From Candidatus Eiseniibacteriota bacterium (GTDB lineage Bacteria > Joyebacterota > Joyebacteria > Joyebacterales > Joyebacteraceae): a DNA stretch of 64,000 bases. Under the pieces are notes generated by a model. It ran no database searches, had not been told where the DNA came from, and saw only the letters and a program-made list of their open reading frames with translations. Shown one piece after another: positions 11,522-14,209 of the stretch. A program made the position numbers and the translations under genes. The first letter of the stretch is position 1; every line of letters starts with the position of its first letter. The stretch is from NCBI GenBank assembly GCA_030622115.1, contig JAUXGN010000008.1, positions 8,185-72,184 on the forward strand, written 5' to 3'.

Positions 11522-14209
11522 GTGCGCGGCGTGGCCATGAGGCCACGCCGTTCTTTCTATTTGTGCTCGTCTGCGCTGCCTGCAGTGGTATCGGTCATGC
11601 TTGGTTTCACCGTGCCCGGGCTGGTCAGTAACTTGCTTCCGCAGTACTCAAACCCCGAATCCACAGGTACTCCCCGATGGGTCATTCCTACAGTGGCACC
11701 AGCCAACAGGCAAAGTCGATTCGACATGCAGGAGGAACTGCGTCTCGTCGCGTCCGGATTCGAGTCGTCCGTCAGTCGTCTCCGTTCGGAGAGCGCGATG
11801 TCGGACAGGGGCATCAGACCGACCAACATCGCCGTAGCACTACCGTTTCTTCTGATCGAAGGCATACGGTTTGAGGGTGACCGCGATGCCGCGAGAGCGA
11901 TGTCCTTGGGGAACGCATTCGCCACGGCGCATTTCCTTTCCCAAGATGGGCTCCTGGACGGTACAACGAGCGCCAGACCGAGAGCGCTGGGTTTCTGCGA
12001 CAGATGTCTTGCCGAATTCGTTCGCCTCTACGGTGAGCTCCTGCCGCGGGAGAGCGATTTCTGGCAGCACTATGACCGGTTCATGGACGAGTATTTCTCA
12101 AGTCTTGAATGGGAGCTGTCGATCCACCACGGAGACGGAGGCGTCAAGGCCGTCGGAGACGATGAGCTCGATAGAACGCTTCTTCTTCTGGGCAGGAAGA
12201 TGTCGCCGCTCAAGGTCACGGCGGCTGCCGTGGCCACTCTTGGCGGGCGTCCGGATCTCCTTCCGGGCATGGAGCGGTTGATAGAGGAGTACCACGCCGG
12301 CTACCAGCTGGCCGATGATCTGGTCGATCTTCGTGAGGATCTGGAAGCGCATCGGCCGTCAGCGACAGCGTGGATGCTTCTTCGATGGAGCGGCCGCACG
12401 GAGCTCCCGGAGGAACTGTCAGCAAGAGGTCTCATGAGGATGGCGGTGGAGTCGGGCGCACTGAAGAGAGTCACAGGGACGATGGAGTCGTGCTACGCGC
12501 GCGCACTCAGCACGGCAGAGGAACTCCCGTGTCCGGAGCTTGCGGAGTTTTTGGGAACAGTGCTTCACGATACCGCTTTCGGCAATGCCCGAATGACTCG
12601 CCGCCTCTCACTGGAGGCGCGAGCTGCTCGAACTGATCAGAGGAGTTGCTCGGATCCGAATGCGCCCGAACCACATGGCTCCGTCGCGCGCGCCATTGTG
12701 GCGGCGCGCGAGCTCCACACGTTCGATGTTGCAGAAAAAGAGTTCGCGTTCGATCCCGCGTCAGGATTCTTCTTCGAAGCAGATGCCGTTGCTCGGGACA
12801 CCATCAGGTGGCTCAGGAGAAGAGCGCCTGAAGCTGAGCGGGCCGTACTCGAACTCAACCACGGCGCGGCTTCCATCCGAACCGGCATATCCGAGGTGGC
12901 GGGGTTGGCGCCGGATGCGAAGCCCCGCGGAGATGGAGGGCAGGCCGGACCGATCGAGATCTCCATCAAGTCGCTGGCGCTCAATGTGAGCAATGCCTGC
13001 AACCTCTCGTGCACCTACTGCTATCTCGGAGCGGCGACGGCTTCTCGGAGGGGCAACAGAAACTCTGAGGAGAGGCTTGCGGGTGATACCATGTCCGAGG
13101 ACGTCGCCTTCAGGGCGGTCGACGTCCTGATGCGCGAGTCGTTCGGAGAGCCGGAAGTGTCGATAGTGTTCTTTGGCGGGGAGCCACTTCTCGCGACTGA
13201 GATGCTCCGACCGGTCGTCCGATATGCGAGGGAGCGGGCGGCCGAAGTGGGTAGGCAGATCCACTTCCACATGACAACGAACGGAACACTGCTCAGATCC
13301 AGCACCGCGAAACTCCTTGCCGAACTCGGGATCGATTGTCTAGTCAGTATGGACGGCTGCGAGAAGGATCACGACGCGAACCGGTGCTTTCCGAACGGGG
13401 AGGGATCCTACGCGCATATCGCCCGCAATCTGGCGGAGTTGCCTCCCGACTTCGATGTCGGTGTCAGGGCGACCATTACCGAATCGTCCGGAGCGCTGAC
13501 CGCTCTTGTGGAGCATCTCACGGGGCTGGGCTTCTCGATGGTACACCTGGCTCCAGTCAGTGGCACGAGCATGGGAAAGGAGTTCGCTCTCAGGCTCTGC
13601 TCTGAGTTCGAAGCACTCGCCGAATCGGAACGCGACGCGCTGCTGAACGGTTCGCGTCCGTCGGTGAGCAGTTTCACCGAGCCGATGGCGCTCCTGGCCG
13701 GCGGATTTCGCCGGAGTTCTCCGTGTGGCGCCGGTGCACGCTACCTCTCCGTTGCGACCGACGGGACGCTCTATCTCTGCCACAGATTCGCAGGCGACAG
13801 TCGCTTCGCCGTCGGACACGTGGCGGGCGGCATCGACCGCGGGGCGATCACGTCACTGCTCAGGAGATTGCGAGCGGCGTCGTCTGCCTGCCGGGACTGT
13901 TGGGCCCGTGATCTGTGCGGCGGTCCCTGCTATCACGACCTGGAAACGATGCCTGAGGAATCCGTGGGGCACGATGCGGTGCGATGCTCCGTACGGAAGA
14001 GGATCATCGAACTCTCGATGTGGTTGTACGCGGAGCTGCCTGAAGAGCAGCGGAAGCGCCTGCGTGGACGGGCGCGGCGTGAATCCCGCCGGGAGGGGAA
14101 GGTGGGGGATCGTCCGCGAGTGGAAACGAGTGGCAAAACAACGGTGCGGGAGGGGGGTGATGGGGTTGAAGCACATGAAGCTGGCGAACGGCATCAGGGG
14201 GGCGGCTGA
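11522..14209 (+). CDS. radical SAM/SPASM-domain peptide-modifying enzyme with ~480-aa N-terminal domain of unknown function
   Basis: Central CNLSCTYC (Cx3Cx2C) radical SAM motif, FFGGEPLL, HMTTNGTLL, SMDG; C-terminal SPASM Cys clusters SPCGAGARYLSVATDGTLYLCHRF and CRDCWARDLCGGPCYHD; N-terminal half has Asp-rich motifs (GDDELD, LADDLVDLRED) but no assignable family; start codon uncertain (GTG 11522 / ATG 11537 / later Mets). Confidence 0.85.
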   Translation: MRGVAMRPRRSFYLCSSALPAVVSVMLGFTVPGLVSNLLPQYSNPESTGTPRWVIPTVAPANRQSRFDMQEELRLVASGFESSVSRLRSESAMSDRGIRPTNIAVALPFLLIEGIRFEGDRDAARAMSLGNAFATAHFLSQDGLLDGTTSARPRALGFCDRCLAEFVRLYGELLPRESDFWQHYDRFMDEYFSSLEWELSIHHGDGGVKAVGDDELDRTLLLLGRKMSPLKVTAAAVATLGGRPDLLPGMERLIEEYHAGYQLADDLVDLREDLEAHRPSATAWMLLRWSGRTELPEELSARGLMRMAVESGALKRVTGTMESCYARALSTAEELPCPELAEFLGTVLHDTAFGNARMTRRLSLEARAARTDQRSCSDPNAPEPHGSVARAIVAARELHTFDVAEKEFAFDPASGFFFEADAVARDTIRWLRRRAPEAERAVLELNHGAASIRTGISEVAGLAPDAKPRGDGGQAGPIEISIKSLALNVSNACNLSCTYCYLGAATASRRGNRNSEERLAGDTMSEDVAFRAVDVLMRESFGEPEVSIVFFGGEPLLATEMLRPVVRYARERAAEVGRQIHFHMTTNGTLLRSSTAKLLAELGIDCLVSMDGCEKDHDANRCFPNGEGSYAHIARNLAELPPDFDVGVRATITESSGALTALVEHLTGLGFSMVHLAPVSGTSMGKEFALRLCSEFEALAESERDALLNGSRPSVSSFTEPMALLAGGFRRSSPCGAGARYLSVATDGTLYLCHRFAGDSRFAVGHVAGGIDRGAITSLLRRLRAASSACRDCWARDLCGGPCYHDLETMPEESVGHDAVRCSVRKRIIELSMWLYAELPEEQRKRLRGRARRESRREGKVGDRPRVETSGKTTVREGGDGVEAHEAGERHQGGG

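What the first reader, a model, noticed from the sequence alone, without database searches (positions are those of the whole stretch)
11522..12960. Unassigned ~480-aa N-terminal domain fused to the rSAM/SPASM enzyme
The radical SAM core begins only near residue ~480. The preceding region has no Cys cluster, no HExxH and no recognisable RRE/PqqD-like pattern by eye. It contains Asp-rich motifs (VGDDELDR, YQLADDLVDLRED) reminiscent of metal/diphosphate-binding DDxxD motifs, but with the wrong spacing for a polyprenyl synthase. It could be a giant leader-recognition or second catalytic module; the start codon is also ambiguous (no clear SD before 11522/11537).
Basis: seen in the sequence. Interest (0 to 1): 0.55.

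Follow-up and report, generated by a model that had tools for sequence, protein, structure and literature searches.

The report
Prenyl-synthase-like domain on peptide-crosslinking enzyme
The unexplained front end of this radical-SAM peptide-crosslinking enzyme is a conserved domain with the fold and metal-binding motifs of isoprenoid (polyprenyl) synthases, so the enzyme may both cross-link and lipidate two small Cys/Asp-rich peptides encoded next to it, a combination I found described nowhere.

Summary
The first 204 nt of the ORF (11522-11725) are not coding. They hold a conserved sigma-54 promoter (11622-11637), and the gene starts at ATG 11726.

The "480-aa unassigned region" splits into three parts:
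- a 306-aa all-alpha domain (11726-12643);
- a short linker;
- a canonical RRE (12680-12901), which belongs to the CteB/PapB/QhpD-like rSAM/SPASM maturase.

The 306-aa domain has the trans-isoprenyl diphosphate synthase fold (AF2 pLDDT 92; all top 50 PDB hits are polyprenyl synthases or the indole prenyltransferase Ord1).
- It keeps a FARM-like DxxxD, a KT-like Lys and a complete SARM extended to DDxxDxxxD.
- It lacks the IPP-binding basic motifs and matches no Pfam or NCBIfam model.

The domain family has 335 representatives. About a quarter are fused to rSAM/SPASM enzymes. Others are stand-alone genes beside rSAM or LanM genes, or are fused to terpene-cyclase-like or geranylgeranyl-reductase-like domains.

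The operon is syntenic in about 27 Candidatus Eisenbacteria MAGs. It encodes two precursors, each with five Cys...Asp pairs and one invariant Trp.

Best reading: a second, leader-guided catalytic module, probably a peptide prenyltransferase. The fold is shown; the chemistry is inferred.

The parts
11522..11725 (+). Open but non-coding 5' extension of the ORF (promoter and 5' leader of the operon).
   Evidence: Indels of 12, 48 and about 72 nt, some not multiples of three, in close relatives. Protein conservation starts at residue 69.
11622..11637 (+). Sigma-54-type -24/-12 promoter element TGGTCAGTAACTTGCT.
   Evidence: Invariant block in an otherwise indel-rich region. Pattern match. The same element lies 105-313 nt upstream of the domain start in 25 of 26 related loci. 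Sigma-54 activator genes flank the operon.
11726..12643 (+). Trans-isoprenyl diphosphate synthase-fold domain (mature residues 1-306; ORF residues 69-374), starting at the likely true ATG.
   Evidence: AF2 pLDDT 92.4, pTM 0.89, all-alpha. Foldseek top 50 PDB hits are all polyprenyl synthases or Ord1, TM about 0.6. The family profile hits only polyprenyl synthases in PDB sequences, best E 1e-6. 335 representatives found.
11927..11962 (+). FARM-like motif AHFLSQDGLLDG. D142 and D146 are invariant; some homologues have a full DDxxD.
   Evidence: Alignments. Aligns to the FARM of 5h9d.
12191..12214 (+). GRKMSPLK: KT-motif-like Lys region (K231 invariant).
   Evidence: Aligns to GKT of 4lob.
12293..12355 (+). 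SARM-like motif HAGYQLADDLVDLREDLEAHR. Q262, D265, D266, D269, D273 and R278 are invariant in the fusion clade; this gives DDxxDxxxD.
   Evidence: Aligns to FQxxDDxxD of polyprenyl synthases. Present in 137 of 158 family sequences.
12152..12175 (+).
   Evidence: Variable, and deleted in P0007.
12644..12679 (+). Variable inter-domain linker.
   Evidence: Low pLDDT at mature residues 305-308. Length-variable with insertions in P0002 and P0003.
12680..12901 (+). RRE (leader-peptide recognition element): one helix followed by beta3-alpha3.
   Evidence: The QhpD model TIGR03906 aligns from ORF residue 397. Strands at mature residues 331-335, 338-343 and 348-352, then three helices. CteB superposes over RRE, rSAM and SPASM.
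12971..14209 (+). Radical SAM core and SPASM domain of a thioether-forming maturase (CxxxCxxC at 12998-13021), followed by a disordered charged tail and the stop codon.
   Evidence: Pfam and NCBIfam: PapB 1.4e-73, QhpD 1.5e-73, SCIFF 5e-53. Foldseek CteB 5wgg E 1e-22.
14160..14345 (+). Precursor peptide A (leader MGLKHMKLANG...; core CFVDYSQCPSSDLCWILDVGCGCEQHDNCFVDTG). It overlaps the 3' end of the maturase gene.
   Evidence: Conserved in about 27 loci.
14384..14551 (+). Precursor peptide B (leader MNHLRLANG...; core CYIFVDWGDCGSVDQCGFDFGSCGNRDVCLVDY).
   Evidence: Conserved in about 27 loci.
14561..17543 (+). Operon partners: an FG-GAP/PQQ-like beta-propeller protein (14561-15997), an ABC ATPase (15994-16731) and an ABC-2 permease (16728-17543).
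   Evidence: Pfam. Syntenic in all long loci.
7481..10579 (+). TPR-containing sigma-54 activator, the likely regulator of the operon. A PAS histidine kinase (17597-19570) and a sigma-54 response regulator (19642-20982) lie at the other end.
   Evidence: Synteny.

Best explanation
The gene (true start ATG 11726, 827 aa) encodes a three-part RiPP maturase.
1. [quoted passage not shown]
2. An ordinary RRE that binds the conserved MKHLRLANG leader.
3. A CteB/PapB/QhpD-type radical SAM/SPASM domain.

Substrates and the rSAM part: the substrates are the two Cys/Asp-rich peptides encoded immediately downstream. The rSAM part most likely makes five Cys-to-Asp (ranthionine-type) thioethers per peptide.

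The N-terminal domain is most likely a second catalytic module. It would bind an allylic prenyl diphosphate through Mg2+ held by D142/D146 and by D265/D266/D269/D273. K231 and R278 would contact the diphosphate. The domain would ionise the donor and transfer the prenyl group to the tethered peptide. The invariant Trp of each core is the leading acceptor candidate, by analogy with ComQ, PalQ, ChrPC and StheQ. The product would be a lipidated, thioether-bridged peptide, exported or handled by the adjacent ABC-2 transporter and beta-propeller protein. The operon is under sigma-54 control.

Shown: the start site and promoter, the domain boundaries, the fold, the motif conservation, the RRE, the precursor genes, the synteny, and the recurrent fusion or adjacency with RiPP enzymes.

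Inferred: prenyl diphosphate binding, transfer to the peptide, the acceptor residue, the donor length, the order of the two reactions, and Cys-Asp as the cross-link type.
For: Fold:
- AF2 pLDDT 92.4.
- All top 50 Foldseek PDB hits are trans-IPPS enzymes or the all-alpha indole prenyltransferase Ord1.

Sequence:
- The family profile hits only polyprenyl synthases among 177,635 PDB sequences. FARM, KT and SARM are in register.
- 8 of 96 relatives reach PF00348 and 4 reach Terpene_syn_C_2.

Catalytic residues:
- D142, D146, K231, Q262, D265, D266, D269, D273 and R278 are invariant in the fusion clade.
- The equivalent Asp, Lys and Gln positions are at least 90% conserved in the wider family.
- Both Asp motifs are present in 132 of 158 sequences.

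Not an elongating synthase: the GGKRxRP and post-FARM RRG positions align to unconserved, non-basic columns.

Coupling to peptide maturases:
- 37 of 158 relatives are fused to rSAM/SPASM regions (NCBIfam).
- Split versions sit next to rSAM genes in either order: L002, L036, L037, L040.
- One stand-alone member sits beside LanM genes in L039.
- Cys-rich precursors occur near distant members in L032-L035.

Isoprenoid context: fusions to squalene-hopene-cyclase/prenyltransferase alpha/alpha toroid domains and to a geranylgeranyl-reductase-like flavoprotein.

Precedent: trans-IDS-like enzymes prenylate Trp of ribosomal peptides (PMC13290415 sec. 2.4; bioRxiv 10.64898/2026.08.29.745113; PMC12510300).

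Acceptor candidate: Trp is invariant in every precursor A and precursor B.

rSAM part: NCBIfam hits to PapB and QhpD, CteB superposition, and five Cys each followed by Asp at +3 to +5. Freyrasin/PapB Cys-Asp chemistry is described in PMC11002830.
Against: - No biochemical data exist for any member of this domain family.
- The motif pattern is the reverse of characterised peptide prenyltransferases. ComQ, StheQ and Ord1 keep the FARM and have a degenerate pseudo-SARM. Here the FARM has lost its second Asp in the window protein (DGLLD) and the SARM is intact.
- Trp is not universal in precursors next to distant family members. The L034 and L035 peptides and one L033 peptide lack it. The acceptor is therefore uncertain.
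- Fold matches are moderate (TM about 0.6, E about 1e-4, 11-17% identity).
- I could not inspect model coordinates, so pocket geometry and the relative orientation of the two active sites are untested.
- The operon has no dedicated prenyl-diphosphate supply gene and no leader protease.
Confidence: 0.5

Rival explanations
1. The N-terminal domain is a catalytically dead relic of an isoprenoid synthase. It would serve as a scaffold for dimerisation, core-peptide docking or chaperoning for the rSAM domain.
For: No Pfam or NCBIfam model matches it. The FARM has lost its second Asp in the window protein. Trans-IDS-like enzymes are typically homodimers (PMC13290415), so the domain could simply dimerise the maturase. 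The high pTM of the full-length model (0.84) suggests a fixed packing against the rest of the protein.
Against: The most conserved positions across 335 representatives, down to about 20% identity, are exactly the metal- and diphosphate-binding positions: D74, D78, K163, Q194, D197, D198, D201 and D205 in domain numbering. A scaffold would not hold these constant. Fusions to terpene-cyclase-like and geranylgeranyl-reductase-like domains point to live isoprenoid chemistry.
Confidence: 0.15
2. The domain is a genuine prenyl diphosphate synthase or other donor-supplying enzyme. It would make the isoprenoid donor for a separate peptide-modifying enzyme and would not touch the peptide itself.
For: The closest structures and sequence relatives are chain-elongating polyprenyl synthases, and the SARM is fully intact. 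In Bacteroidetes-type loci the domain is accompanied by, or fused to, a Prenyltrans/SQHop alpha/alpha-toroid protein that could be the real transferase or cyclase.
Against: The IPP-site basic motifs (GGKRxRP, and RRG after the FARM) are not conserved. PF00348 does not match even at E<=10. The Eisenbacteria operon has no toroid partner or other transferase. Covalent fusion in front of an RRE argues that the peptide is brought to this domain.
Confidence: 0.12
3. The domain performs other class I chemistry. Examples are cyclisation of an already attached prenyl chain (terpene-cyclase-like) or ionisation of a non-isoprenoid diphosphate.
For: The second motif, D265-x3-D269-x3-D273, has the i, i+4, i+8 spacing of the NSE/DTE metal triad of class I terpene cyclases (sequence; established knowledge of that motif). 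Four relatives reach PF19086 Terpene_syn_C_2. RiPPs with cyclised isoprenoid moieties are known (Hubrich et al. 2024, cited in PMC13290415; I could not read that paper).
Against: Foldseek ranks polyprenyl synthases and Ord1 first, and no terpene cyclase is in the top 50. No separate prenyltransferase is in the operon to attach the chain first.
Confidence: 0.1
4. The region is not translated, and the real protein starts near 12900, just before the rSAM core.
For: The 5' end of the ORF is indeed non-coding. There is no clear Shine-Dalgarno sequence before 11726.
Against: From 11726 on, protein-level conservation reaches 41% identity with indels only in multiples of three. Codon-position GC is that of genes. 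335 homologous proteins were found. The model is confident. Gene callers in other assemblies start at the M69 equivalent (P0002-P0004).
Confidence: 0.01

Closest known systems
Trans-IDS-like peptide tryptophan prenyltransferases (ComQ, PalQ, ChrPC P-domain, StheQ) and the indole prenyltransferases Ord1/XiaM
   Same: Same all-alpha IPPS fold; Ord1 is among the top Foldseek hits. They act, or are proposed to act, on a ribosomal peptide encoded next door. They share a Gln three residues before the first SARM Asp (Q262-x-x-D265; compare Ord1 Q216/D219). ChrPC, like several relatives of this domain, is fused to a terpene-cyclase-type domain (PMC13290415).
   Different: Those enzymes keep the FARM and have a degenerate, non-metal-binding pseudo-SARM (bioRxiv 10.64898/2026.08.29.745113; PMC12510300). 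Here the SARM is intact and extended to DDxxDxxxD, while the FARM is reduced to DxxxD. None of the known enzymes is fused to an RRE or a radical SAM enzyme. Their substrates are not thioether-bridged Cys/Asp peptides.
Canonical trans-isoprenyl diphosphate synthases (polyprenyl synthases, PF00348)
   Same: Fold, order and spacing of the two Asp-rich motifs (123 versus about 128 residues), KT-like Lys, and FQxxDDxxD-like SARM.
   Different: No match to PF00348. The IPP-binding GGKRxRP and RRG motifs are absent. The second FARM Asp is variable. The domain is fused to a peptide maturase.
Ranthipeptide/QhpC-type thioether maturases (PapB, QhpD, CteB)
   Same: The C-terminal 500 residues have the same RRE-rSAM-SPASM architecture. 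The precursors carry repeated Cys-x2-4-Asp units like freyrasin and QhpC (PMC11002830). As in the qhp system, a beta-propeller protein and an ABC transporter are encoded alongside.
   Different: Scores are below the equivalog cut-offs (248 versus 340 for PapB and 453 for QhpD). No known member carries an N-terminal isoprenoid-synthase-like domain. The precursor family matches no Pfam or NCBIfam model.
ABBA-type RiPP prenyltransferases (cyanobactin PagF/LimF family; lanthipeptide MppC)
   Same: The proposed outcome is the same: prenylation of a macrocyclic ribosomal peptide. MppC is leader-dependent (PMC12715784), as proposed here via the fused RRE.
   Different: Unrelated fold: alpha-beta-beta-alpha barrel versus all-alpha IPPS.

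Membership tests
Isoprenoid synthase (class I, trans-IPPS) fold superfamily | All-alpha IPPS fold | tested here: met
   AF2 pLDDT 92.4. Top 50 Foldseek PDB hits are all trans-IPPS or Ord1, probability 1.00, TM 0.55-0.68.
Isoprenoid synthase (class I, trans-IPPS) fold superfamily | Two Asp-rich metal-binding motifs on opposite walls, about 125-140 residues apart | tested here: met
   D142xxxD146 and D265DxxD269xxxD273 are 123 residues apart. They align to the FARM and SARM of PDB polyprenyl synthases.
Canonical polyprenyl synthase (PF00348 / chain elongation) | Matches the family model at its curated threshold | tested here: not met
   No PF00348 hit for the window protein, even at E<=10. Only 8 of 96 relatives give weak hits, best 8e-7.
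Canonical polyprenyl synthase (PF00348 / chain elongation) | IPP-binding basic residues (GGKRxRP; RRG after the FARM) | tested here: not met
   In the profile-to-5h9d alignment these positions fall on unconserved, non-basic columns. The fusion-clade alignment shows G-x-x-P-x-N and no Arg pair after D146.
Canonical polyprenyl synthase (PF00348 / chain elongation) | Full DDx2-4D FARM | tested here: inconclusive
   The window has DGLLD. Homologues P0007 and P0008 have DDVVD and DDVLD. The first and last Asp are invariant.
ComQ-type trans-IDS-like peptide prenyltransferases | Conserved FARM with a degenerate pseudo-SARM | tested here: not met
   The pattern is reversed here: the SARM is intact and extended, and the FARM is partly degenerate (compared with the descriptions in PMC12510300 and bioRxiv 10.64898/2026.08.29.745113).
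ComQ-type trans-IDS-like peptide prenyltransferases | Gln upstream of the SARM that positions the indole | tested here: inconclusive
   Q262 is invariant. The same Gln also occurs in elongating synthases (FQxxDD), so it does not discriminate.
ComQ-type trans-IDS-like peptide prenyltransferases | Cognate peptide with a Trp acceptor encoded adjacently | tested here: inconclusive
   Precursors A and B each have one invariant Trp in all loci. Precursors near distant family members can lack Trp.
ComQ-type trans-IDS-like peptide prenyltransferases | Sequence relatedness to ComQ, PalQ or ChrPC, and demonstrated prenyl transfer | not testable with these tools
   Reference sequences were not retrievable. 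The ChrPC paper (PMC11484575) is not held.
Class I terpene cyclases | DDxxD plus an NSE/DTE triad, and matches to terpene synthase models | tested here: inconclusive
   D265/D269/D273 have the triad spacing. Four relatives hit PF19086 weakly. The window protein does not hit it, and no cyclase appears in the Foldseek top 50.
RRE-containing rSAM/SPASM thioether (ranthipeptide/QhpD-type) maturases (C-terminal part) | CxxxCxxC rSAM cluster and SPASM Cys motifs | tested here: met
   C493, C497 and C500, and conserved SPASM cysteines. Pfam and NCBIfam hits. CteB superposition at E 1e-22.
RRE-containing rSAM/SPASM thioether (ranthipeptide/QhpD-type) maturases (C-terminal part) | N-terminal RRE (beta3-alpha3 winged helix) | tested here: met
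   The TIGR03906 alignment starts at ORF residue 397. Secondary structure E331-335, E338-343, E348-352, H354-364, H369-379, H381-392. CteB covered at TM 0.83-0.87 normalised to the target.
RRE-containing rSAM/SPASM thioether (ranthipeptide/QhpD-type) maturases (C-terminal part) | Equivalog-level score to PapB, QhpD or SCIFF maturase | tested here: not met
   248 bits versus cut-offs of 340 (PapB) and 453 (QhpD); 180 versus 425 (SCIFF). It is a related but distinct subfamily.
RRE-containing rSAM/SPASM thioether (ranthipeptide/QhpD-type) maturases (C-terminal part) | Adjacent Cys-rich precursor with acceptor residues | tested here: met
   Two precursors lie directly downstream, each with five Cys followed by Asp at +3 to +5, conserved in about 27 loci. 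The cross-link chemistry itself is not testable here.

The most novel reading that the evidence does not exclude
The domain founds an uncharacterised, RiPP-dedicated clade of the isoprenoid synthase superfamily. Unlike ComQ-type enzymes, it keeps a full two-sided metal site. In this fusion it would use the maturase's own RRE to prenylate, and possibly cyclise an isoprenoid on, peptides that the rSAM domain staples with five Cys-Asp thioethers. The products would be the first isoprenoid-lipidated ranthipeptides, made by a single PT-RRE-rSAM enzyme in the uncultured phylum Eisenbacteria. The same domain would supply isoprenoid chemistry to rSAM and lanthipeptide pathways in other phyla.
Probability: 0.4. 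Interest if true: 0.75.

Novelty: new variant of a known kind. Interest (0 to 1): 0.62.

Why it matters
Peptide prenylation by trans-IDS-like enzymes is known from only a handful of cases, all on Trp and none combined with radical-SAM cross-linking. If this domain is active, three things follow.
- It defines a new, sizeable enzyme clade for peptide lipidation: 335 cluster representatives at 50% identity, with no Pfam, NCBIfam or literature description that I could find.
- It gives a natural single-chain example of an RRE shared by two unrelated catalytic domains.
- It predicts a new hybrid natural-product class, isoprenoid-bearing thioether-stapled peptides, from an uncultured phylum.

Lipidated, conformationally locked peptides are sought after for engineering. 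The work also corrects the gene model (true start, sigma-54 promoter) and identifies the substrate peptides, so the hypothesis can be tested directly by heterologous expression.

Tried and rejected
Searches that found nothing useful:
- Pfam on residues 1-480 and 69-396 at E<=10: no hit.
- phmmer of the N-terminal region against PDB sequences: only chance-level hits, a Cas3 HD domain and a methyltransferase at E>0.05. Rejected.
- Word-indexed homologue search with the N-terminal 400 aa: nothing. This was a limitation of the prefilter, because the full-length query and the exhaustive search found homologues. The same limitation made the profile search uninformative; all hits are named 'hypothetical protein'.
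- Cluster-member names: only 'radical SAM protein' or 'uncharacterized protein'.
- Rfam on the upstream gap: only a sub-threshold miRNA hit. Rejected.
- Literature searches for a polyprenyl-synthase/rSAM fusion, prenylated ranthipeptides or Eisenbacteria rSAM systems: nothing relevant.

Tools or data unavailable:
- The genome scan with the broad family alignment A4 failed for lack of conserved stretches. It was repeated with the fusion-clade alignment A5.
- The ChrPC paper could not be read.

Ideas considered and dropped:
- The sigma-54-like site at about 10988 (TGGCACGATGTCTGCC), which I noticed by eye. It lacks the TTGC and is not the conserved element.
- The minus-strand 101-aa ORF at 10965-11270. 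Its conserved blocks fall in different frames in other loci, so it is not a gene.
- GTG 11693 as the start. It is not conserved in L004 and L005.
- A spare Cys as an S-prenyl acceptor. The sixth Cys of precursor A (GCGC) is not conserved.

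
Full report
**1. What is at the coordinates**

A single ORF is open from 11522 to 14209. Its translation shows the rSAM CxxxCxxC at ORF residues 493-500.
- Pfam finds Radical_SAM at 488-605 plus Fer4_12 and a weak SPASM hit.
- NCBIfam places the C-terminal part among thioether-forming peptide maturases: PapB 1.4e-73, QhpD 1.5e-73, nif11-type 6e-59, SCIFF 5e-53. All are below the equivalog cut-offs.
- Nothing in Pfam matches residues 1-480, even at E<=10.
- Codon-position GC from about 11800 onwards is that of neighbouring genes.

**2. The true start and the promoter**

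Ten full-length homologues (772-870 aa, 41-100% identity) all carry the extension. Conservation begins only at ORF residue 69, MQEELR.
- A DNA alignment with five close loci shows indels of 12, 48 and about 72 nt upstream of ATG 11726, some not multiples of three.
- One invariant block lies in that region, CTGGTCAGTAACTTGCTTCC.
- The block is a sigma-54 -24/-12 element (TGG-N8-TTGCW) at 11622-11637.
- The same element lies 105-313 nt upstream of the conserved domain start in 25 of 26 related loci.
- The operon is bracketed by a TPR-containing sigma-54 activator (7481-10579), and by a PAS histidine kinase and a sigma-54 response regulator (17597-20982).

Therefore 11522-11725 is promoter and 5' leader. 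The protein starts at ATG 11726 and is 827 aa long. No obvious Shine-Dalgarno sequence precedes the start.

**3. Domain dissection**

A full-length AF2 model (pLDDT 85, pTM 0.84) gives the following layout in mature numbering:
- residues 1-306: an all-helical domain;
- residues around 305-308: a low-confidence linker;
- residues 319-329: one helix;
- residues 331-352: three strands;
- residues 354-392: three helices;
- from residue 416: the rSAM barrel, SPASM domain and a disordered tail.

The strand-and-helix unit is the RRE topology. The QhpD model TIGR03906 aligns from ORF residue 397. CteB, an RRE-rSAM-SPASM ranthipeptide synthase, superposes at E 1e-22 and TM 0.83-0.87 normalised to the target.

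So the "480 aa" consists of 68 non-coding codons, a 306-aa novel domain (11726-12643), a linker, and an ordinary RRE (12680-12901).

**4. What the 306-aa domain is**

An exhaustive HMMER search found 335 cluster representatives with E<=1e-3. With 95 of them as alignment, AF2 gives pLDDT 92.4 and pTM 0.89.
- Foldseek against the PDB returns only trans-isoprenyl diphosphate synthases in the top 50: GGPP, octaprenyl, hexaprenyl and heptaprenyl synthases, plus the all-alpha indole prenyltransferase Ord1. Values are TM 0.55-0.68, E about 2e-4 and 11-17% identity.
- A profile of 85 family members hits only polyprenyl synthases among all PDB sequences, with best E 1e-6.
- In that search the family motif QLxDDxxDWxxD aligns on the SARM (FQIIDDILD). 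K..PLK aligns on the GKT motif. QDxxxD aligns on the FARM.

In the window protein these motifs are AHFLSQDGLLDG (11927-11962), GRKMSPLK (12191-12214) and YQLADDLVDLREDLEAHR (12302-12355). D142, D146, K231, Q262, D265, D266, D269, D273 and R278 are invariant in the fusion clade. The equivalent Asp, Lys and Gln positions are at least 90% conserved family-wide. Both Asp motifs, at the right spacing, occur in 132 of 158 sequences.

The real spacing of 123 residues matches that of polyprenyl synthases, about 128 in 4lob.

The domain is not a canonical synthase.
- PF00348 does not match.
- The IPP-site motifs GGKRxRP and RRG correspond to unconserved, non-basic columns.
- The second FARM Asp is Gly here.

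**5. Context: substrates and operon**

Two small genes lie immediately downstream.
- Precursor A (14160-14345) overlaps the maturase stop. Its sequence is ...MKLANG...CFVDYSQCPSSDLCWILDVGCGCEQHDNCFVDTG.
- Precursor B (14384-14551) is MNHLRLANG...CYIFVDWGDCGSVDQCGFDFGSCGNRDVCLVDY.

A genome scan found 32 loci. Most of the titled records are Candidatus Eisenbacteria MAGs, the rest mainly unclassified bacterial MAGs, with a few distant Bacteroidetes and Ignavibacteria loci. In about 27 of them the gene order is identical:
- TPR-sigma54 activator
- fusion enzyme
- precursor A
- precursor B (with a third paralogue in four loci)
- FG-GAP/PQQ-like beta-propeller
- ABC ATPase
- ABC-2 permease
- PAS kinase

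Across loci each core keeps five Cys, each followed by Asp at +3 to +5, and one invariant Trp. The leader motif is MKHLR[LV]ANG. The Cys-x-Asp periodicity, together with PapB/QhpD/CteB similarity, points to Cys-Asp ranthionine-type thioethers as in freyrasin and QhpC (PMC11002830). This is an inference. The precursors match no curated family.

**6. Is the domain functionally tied to peptide maturation?**

Yes, by recurrent fusion and adjacency.
- 37 of 158 relatives carry an rSAM/SPASM region (NCBIfam).
- Split forms exist in both orders: rSAM then domain (L002, L036), domain then RRE-rSAM (L037), and GGR-domain fusion then rSAM (L040).
- A stand-alone member sits between two LanM lanthipeptide synthetase genes (L039).
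- Bacteroidetes and Ignavibacteria members lie near Cys-rich precursors.

Independently, the domain is fused in several lineages to squalene-hopene-cyclase/prenyltransferase alpha/alpha-toroid domains, and once to a geranylgeranyl-reductase-like flavoprotein. Both partners belong to isoprenoid chemistry.

**7. Mechanism proposed**

The retained allylic-diphosphate and metal-binding features, the lost IPP site, the fusion upstream of an RRE, and the isoprenoid-type partner domains together favour one reading. The domain is a leader-guided class I prenyl-transfer module acting on the same peptides as the rSAM domain.

Precedent exists. ComQ, PalQ, the ChrPC P-domain and StheQ are trans-IDS-like enzymes that prenylate Trp of ribosomal peptides. 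Ord1 and XiaM prenylate indoles (PMC13290415 sec. 2.4; PMC12510300; bioRxiv 10.64898/2026.08.29.745113). The invariant Trp of each core is therefore the leading acceptor candidate.

Two caveats apply.
- The motif pattern is the opposite of ComQ-type enzymes, which have an intact FARM and a non-metal pseudo-SARM. This is a different branch. The D-x3-D-x3-D extension resembles the NSE/DTE triad of terpene cyclases and the NDxxDxxxD motif of UbiA enzymes.
- Trp is not universal near distant relatives.

Fold and homology have confidence of about 0.9. A catalytic, isoprenoid-diphosphate-dependent role has about 0.65. Peptide prenylation specifically has about 0.45-0.5.

**8. Rivals**

- A dead scaffold is disfavoured, because the best-conserved positions are precisely the catalytic ones.
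- A donor-making elongating synthase is disfavoured by the missing IPP site and by the absence of any other transferase in the Eisenbacteria operon.
- Cyclase-like or other class I chemistry remains possible.
- Non-coding status is refuted.

**9. Novelty**

No Pfam or NCBIfam model covers the domain. Database names are "hypothetical" or "radical SAM protein". Six literature searches found no description of such a fusion or of prenylated ranthipeptides. The library is incomplete, and the most relevant paper (Hubrich 2024) could not be read.

I rate the finding a new variant of a known kind: a known fold, a known class of maturase, a new combination and a new clade.

Noticed in passing
window 11020-11270 (+): A noncoding or small-ORF element of about 240 nt lies in the gap between the activator gene and the operon. 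It is conserved at nucleotide level in all 28 Eisenbacteria loci (nhmmer E 1e-72 to 1e-22), although the flanking proteins are only about 40% identical.
- It starts with an invariant TTGACA.
- It contains an invariant 22-nt block, GGGGGGCGAGTCCGGTCGCTCT.
- It contains a 24-aa hydrophobic ORF (11167-11241, MPSAARVKIIIVILLIGIASPFLG) with invariant ATG and TGA and a 9-nt, in-frame insertion in some loci.
- RNAalifold finds a 5' stem with compensatory changes.
- Rfam has no match.
It is possibly a dual-function small RNA or small membrane peptide linked to regulation of the operon.
   Followed up: partly
window 10965-11270 (-): The 101-aa minus-strand ORF is an artefact of the conserved element described above. 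Its conserved blocks (QPRNGEAIPMSRIT..., QRATGLAP) fall in different reading frames in other loci.
   Followed up: yes
window 10662-10748: A 41-nt unit is tandemly duplicated (2.1 copies, 97% identical) just after the sigma-54 activator gene. Each copy has a GC-rich segment followed by a T run (terminator-like), and a GGGCCGAAGTCGGCCC hairpin precedes them.
   Followed up: partly
window 14160-14209: The precursor A start overlaps the last 50 nt or so of the maturase gene in another frame. This suggests translational coupling of enzyme and substrate.
   Followed up: no
L009 9716-9850; L013 9994-10155; L015 8334-8501; L028 9924-10091: A third precursor paralogue (core C..[FY]ID[WF]GGC...D[FY]C..D...C...D.C.LDY) is present in four loci. 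In L009 the otherwise invariant Trp is replaced by Phe.
   Followed up: partly
window 14561-17543: The gene set echoes the quinohemoprotein amine dehydrogenase (qhp) system: a QhpD-like rSAM, small Cys/Asp/Trp peptides, a secreted beta-propeller protein and an ABC transporter. In that system the cross-linked peptide becomes a subunit bound to a beta-propeller protein and carries a Cys-Trp quinone (my own knowledge of the qhp system). The peptides here might likewise be partners of the propeller protein and not free antibiotics.
   Followed up: no
L033 5881-12922 (Bacteroidetes MAG OY969888): A distant system with the following gene order:
- a QW-motif alpha/alpha-toroid protein;
- the domain fused to an rSAM-like region lacking the CxxxCxxC (a pseudo-rSAM that retains SPASM cysteines);
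- a second SPASM protein;
- a canonical RRE-rSAM/SPASM enzyme;
- two very Cys-rich precursors with leader MKHIELLN and ends such as ...CGLFDY.
   Followed up: partly
L039 354-8099; L040 1649-4785; L038 7001-11252; L003 173-9526: Other contexts of the domain family:
- L039: between LanM genes and a methyltransferase gene.
- L040: fused to a geranylgeranyl-reductase-like flavoprotein and followed by an rSAM gene.
- L038: fused to SQHop-cyclase-like and GldB-like domains, followed by an M50 protease and FtsX/MacB transporters.
- L003: a triple fusion of SQHop-like domain, this domain and an rSAM region, followed by an Rce1-like CPBP protease and a PKS.
   Followed up: partly
window 14086-14206: The last 40 residues or so of the maturase form a charged Arg/Glu/Gly-rich tail. 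The tail is disordered in the model (pLDDT below 35) and varies in length and sequence among homologues.
   Followed up: no
window 24724-27442: A TldD/PmbA metalloprotease pair lies about 4 kb beyond the operon. Such pairs process some RiPP leaders, but these genes are probably housekeeping. The operon itself contains no dedicated leader protease.
   Followed up: no
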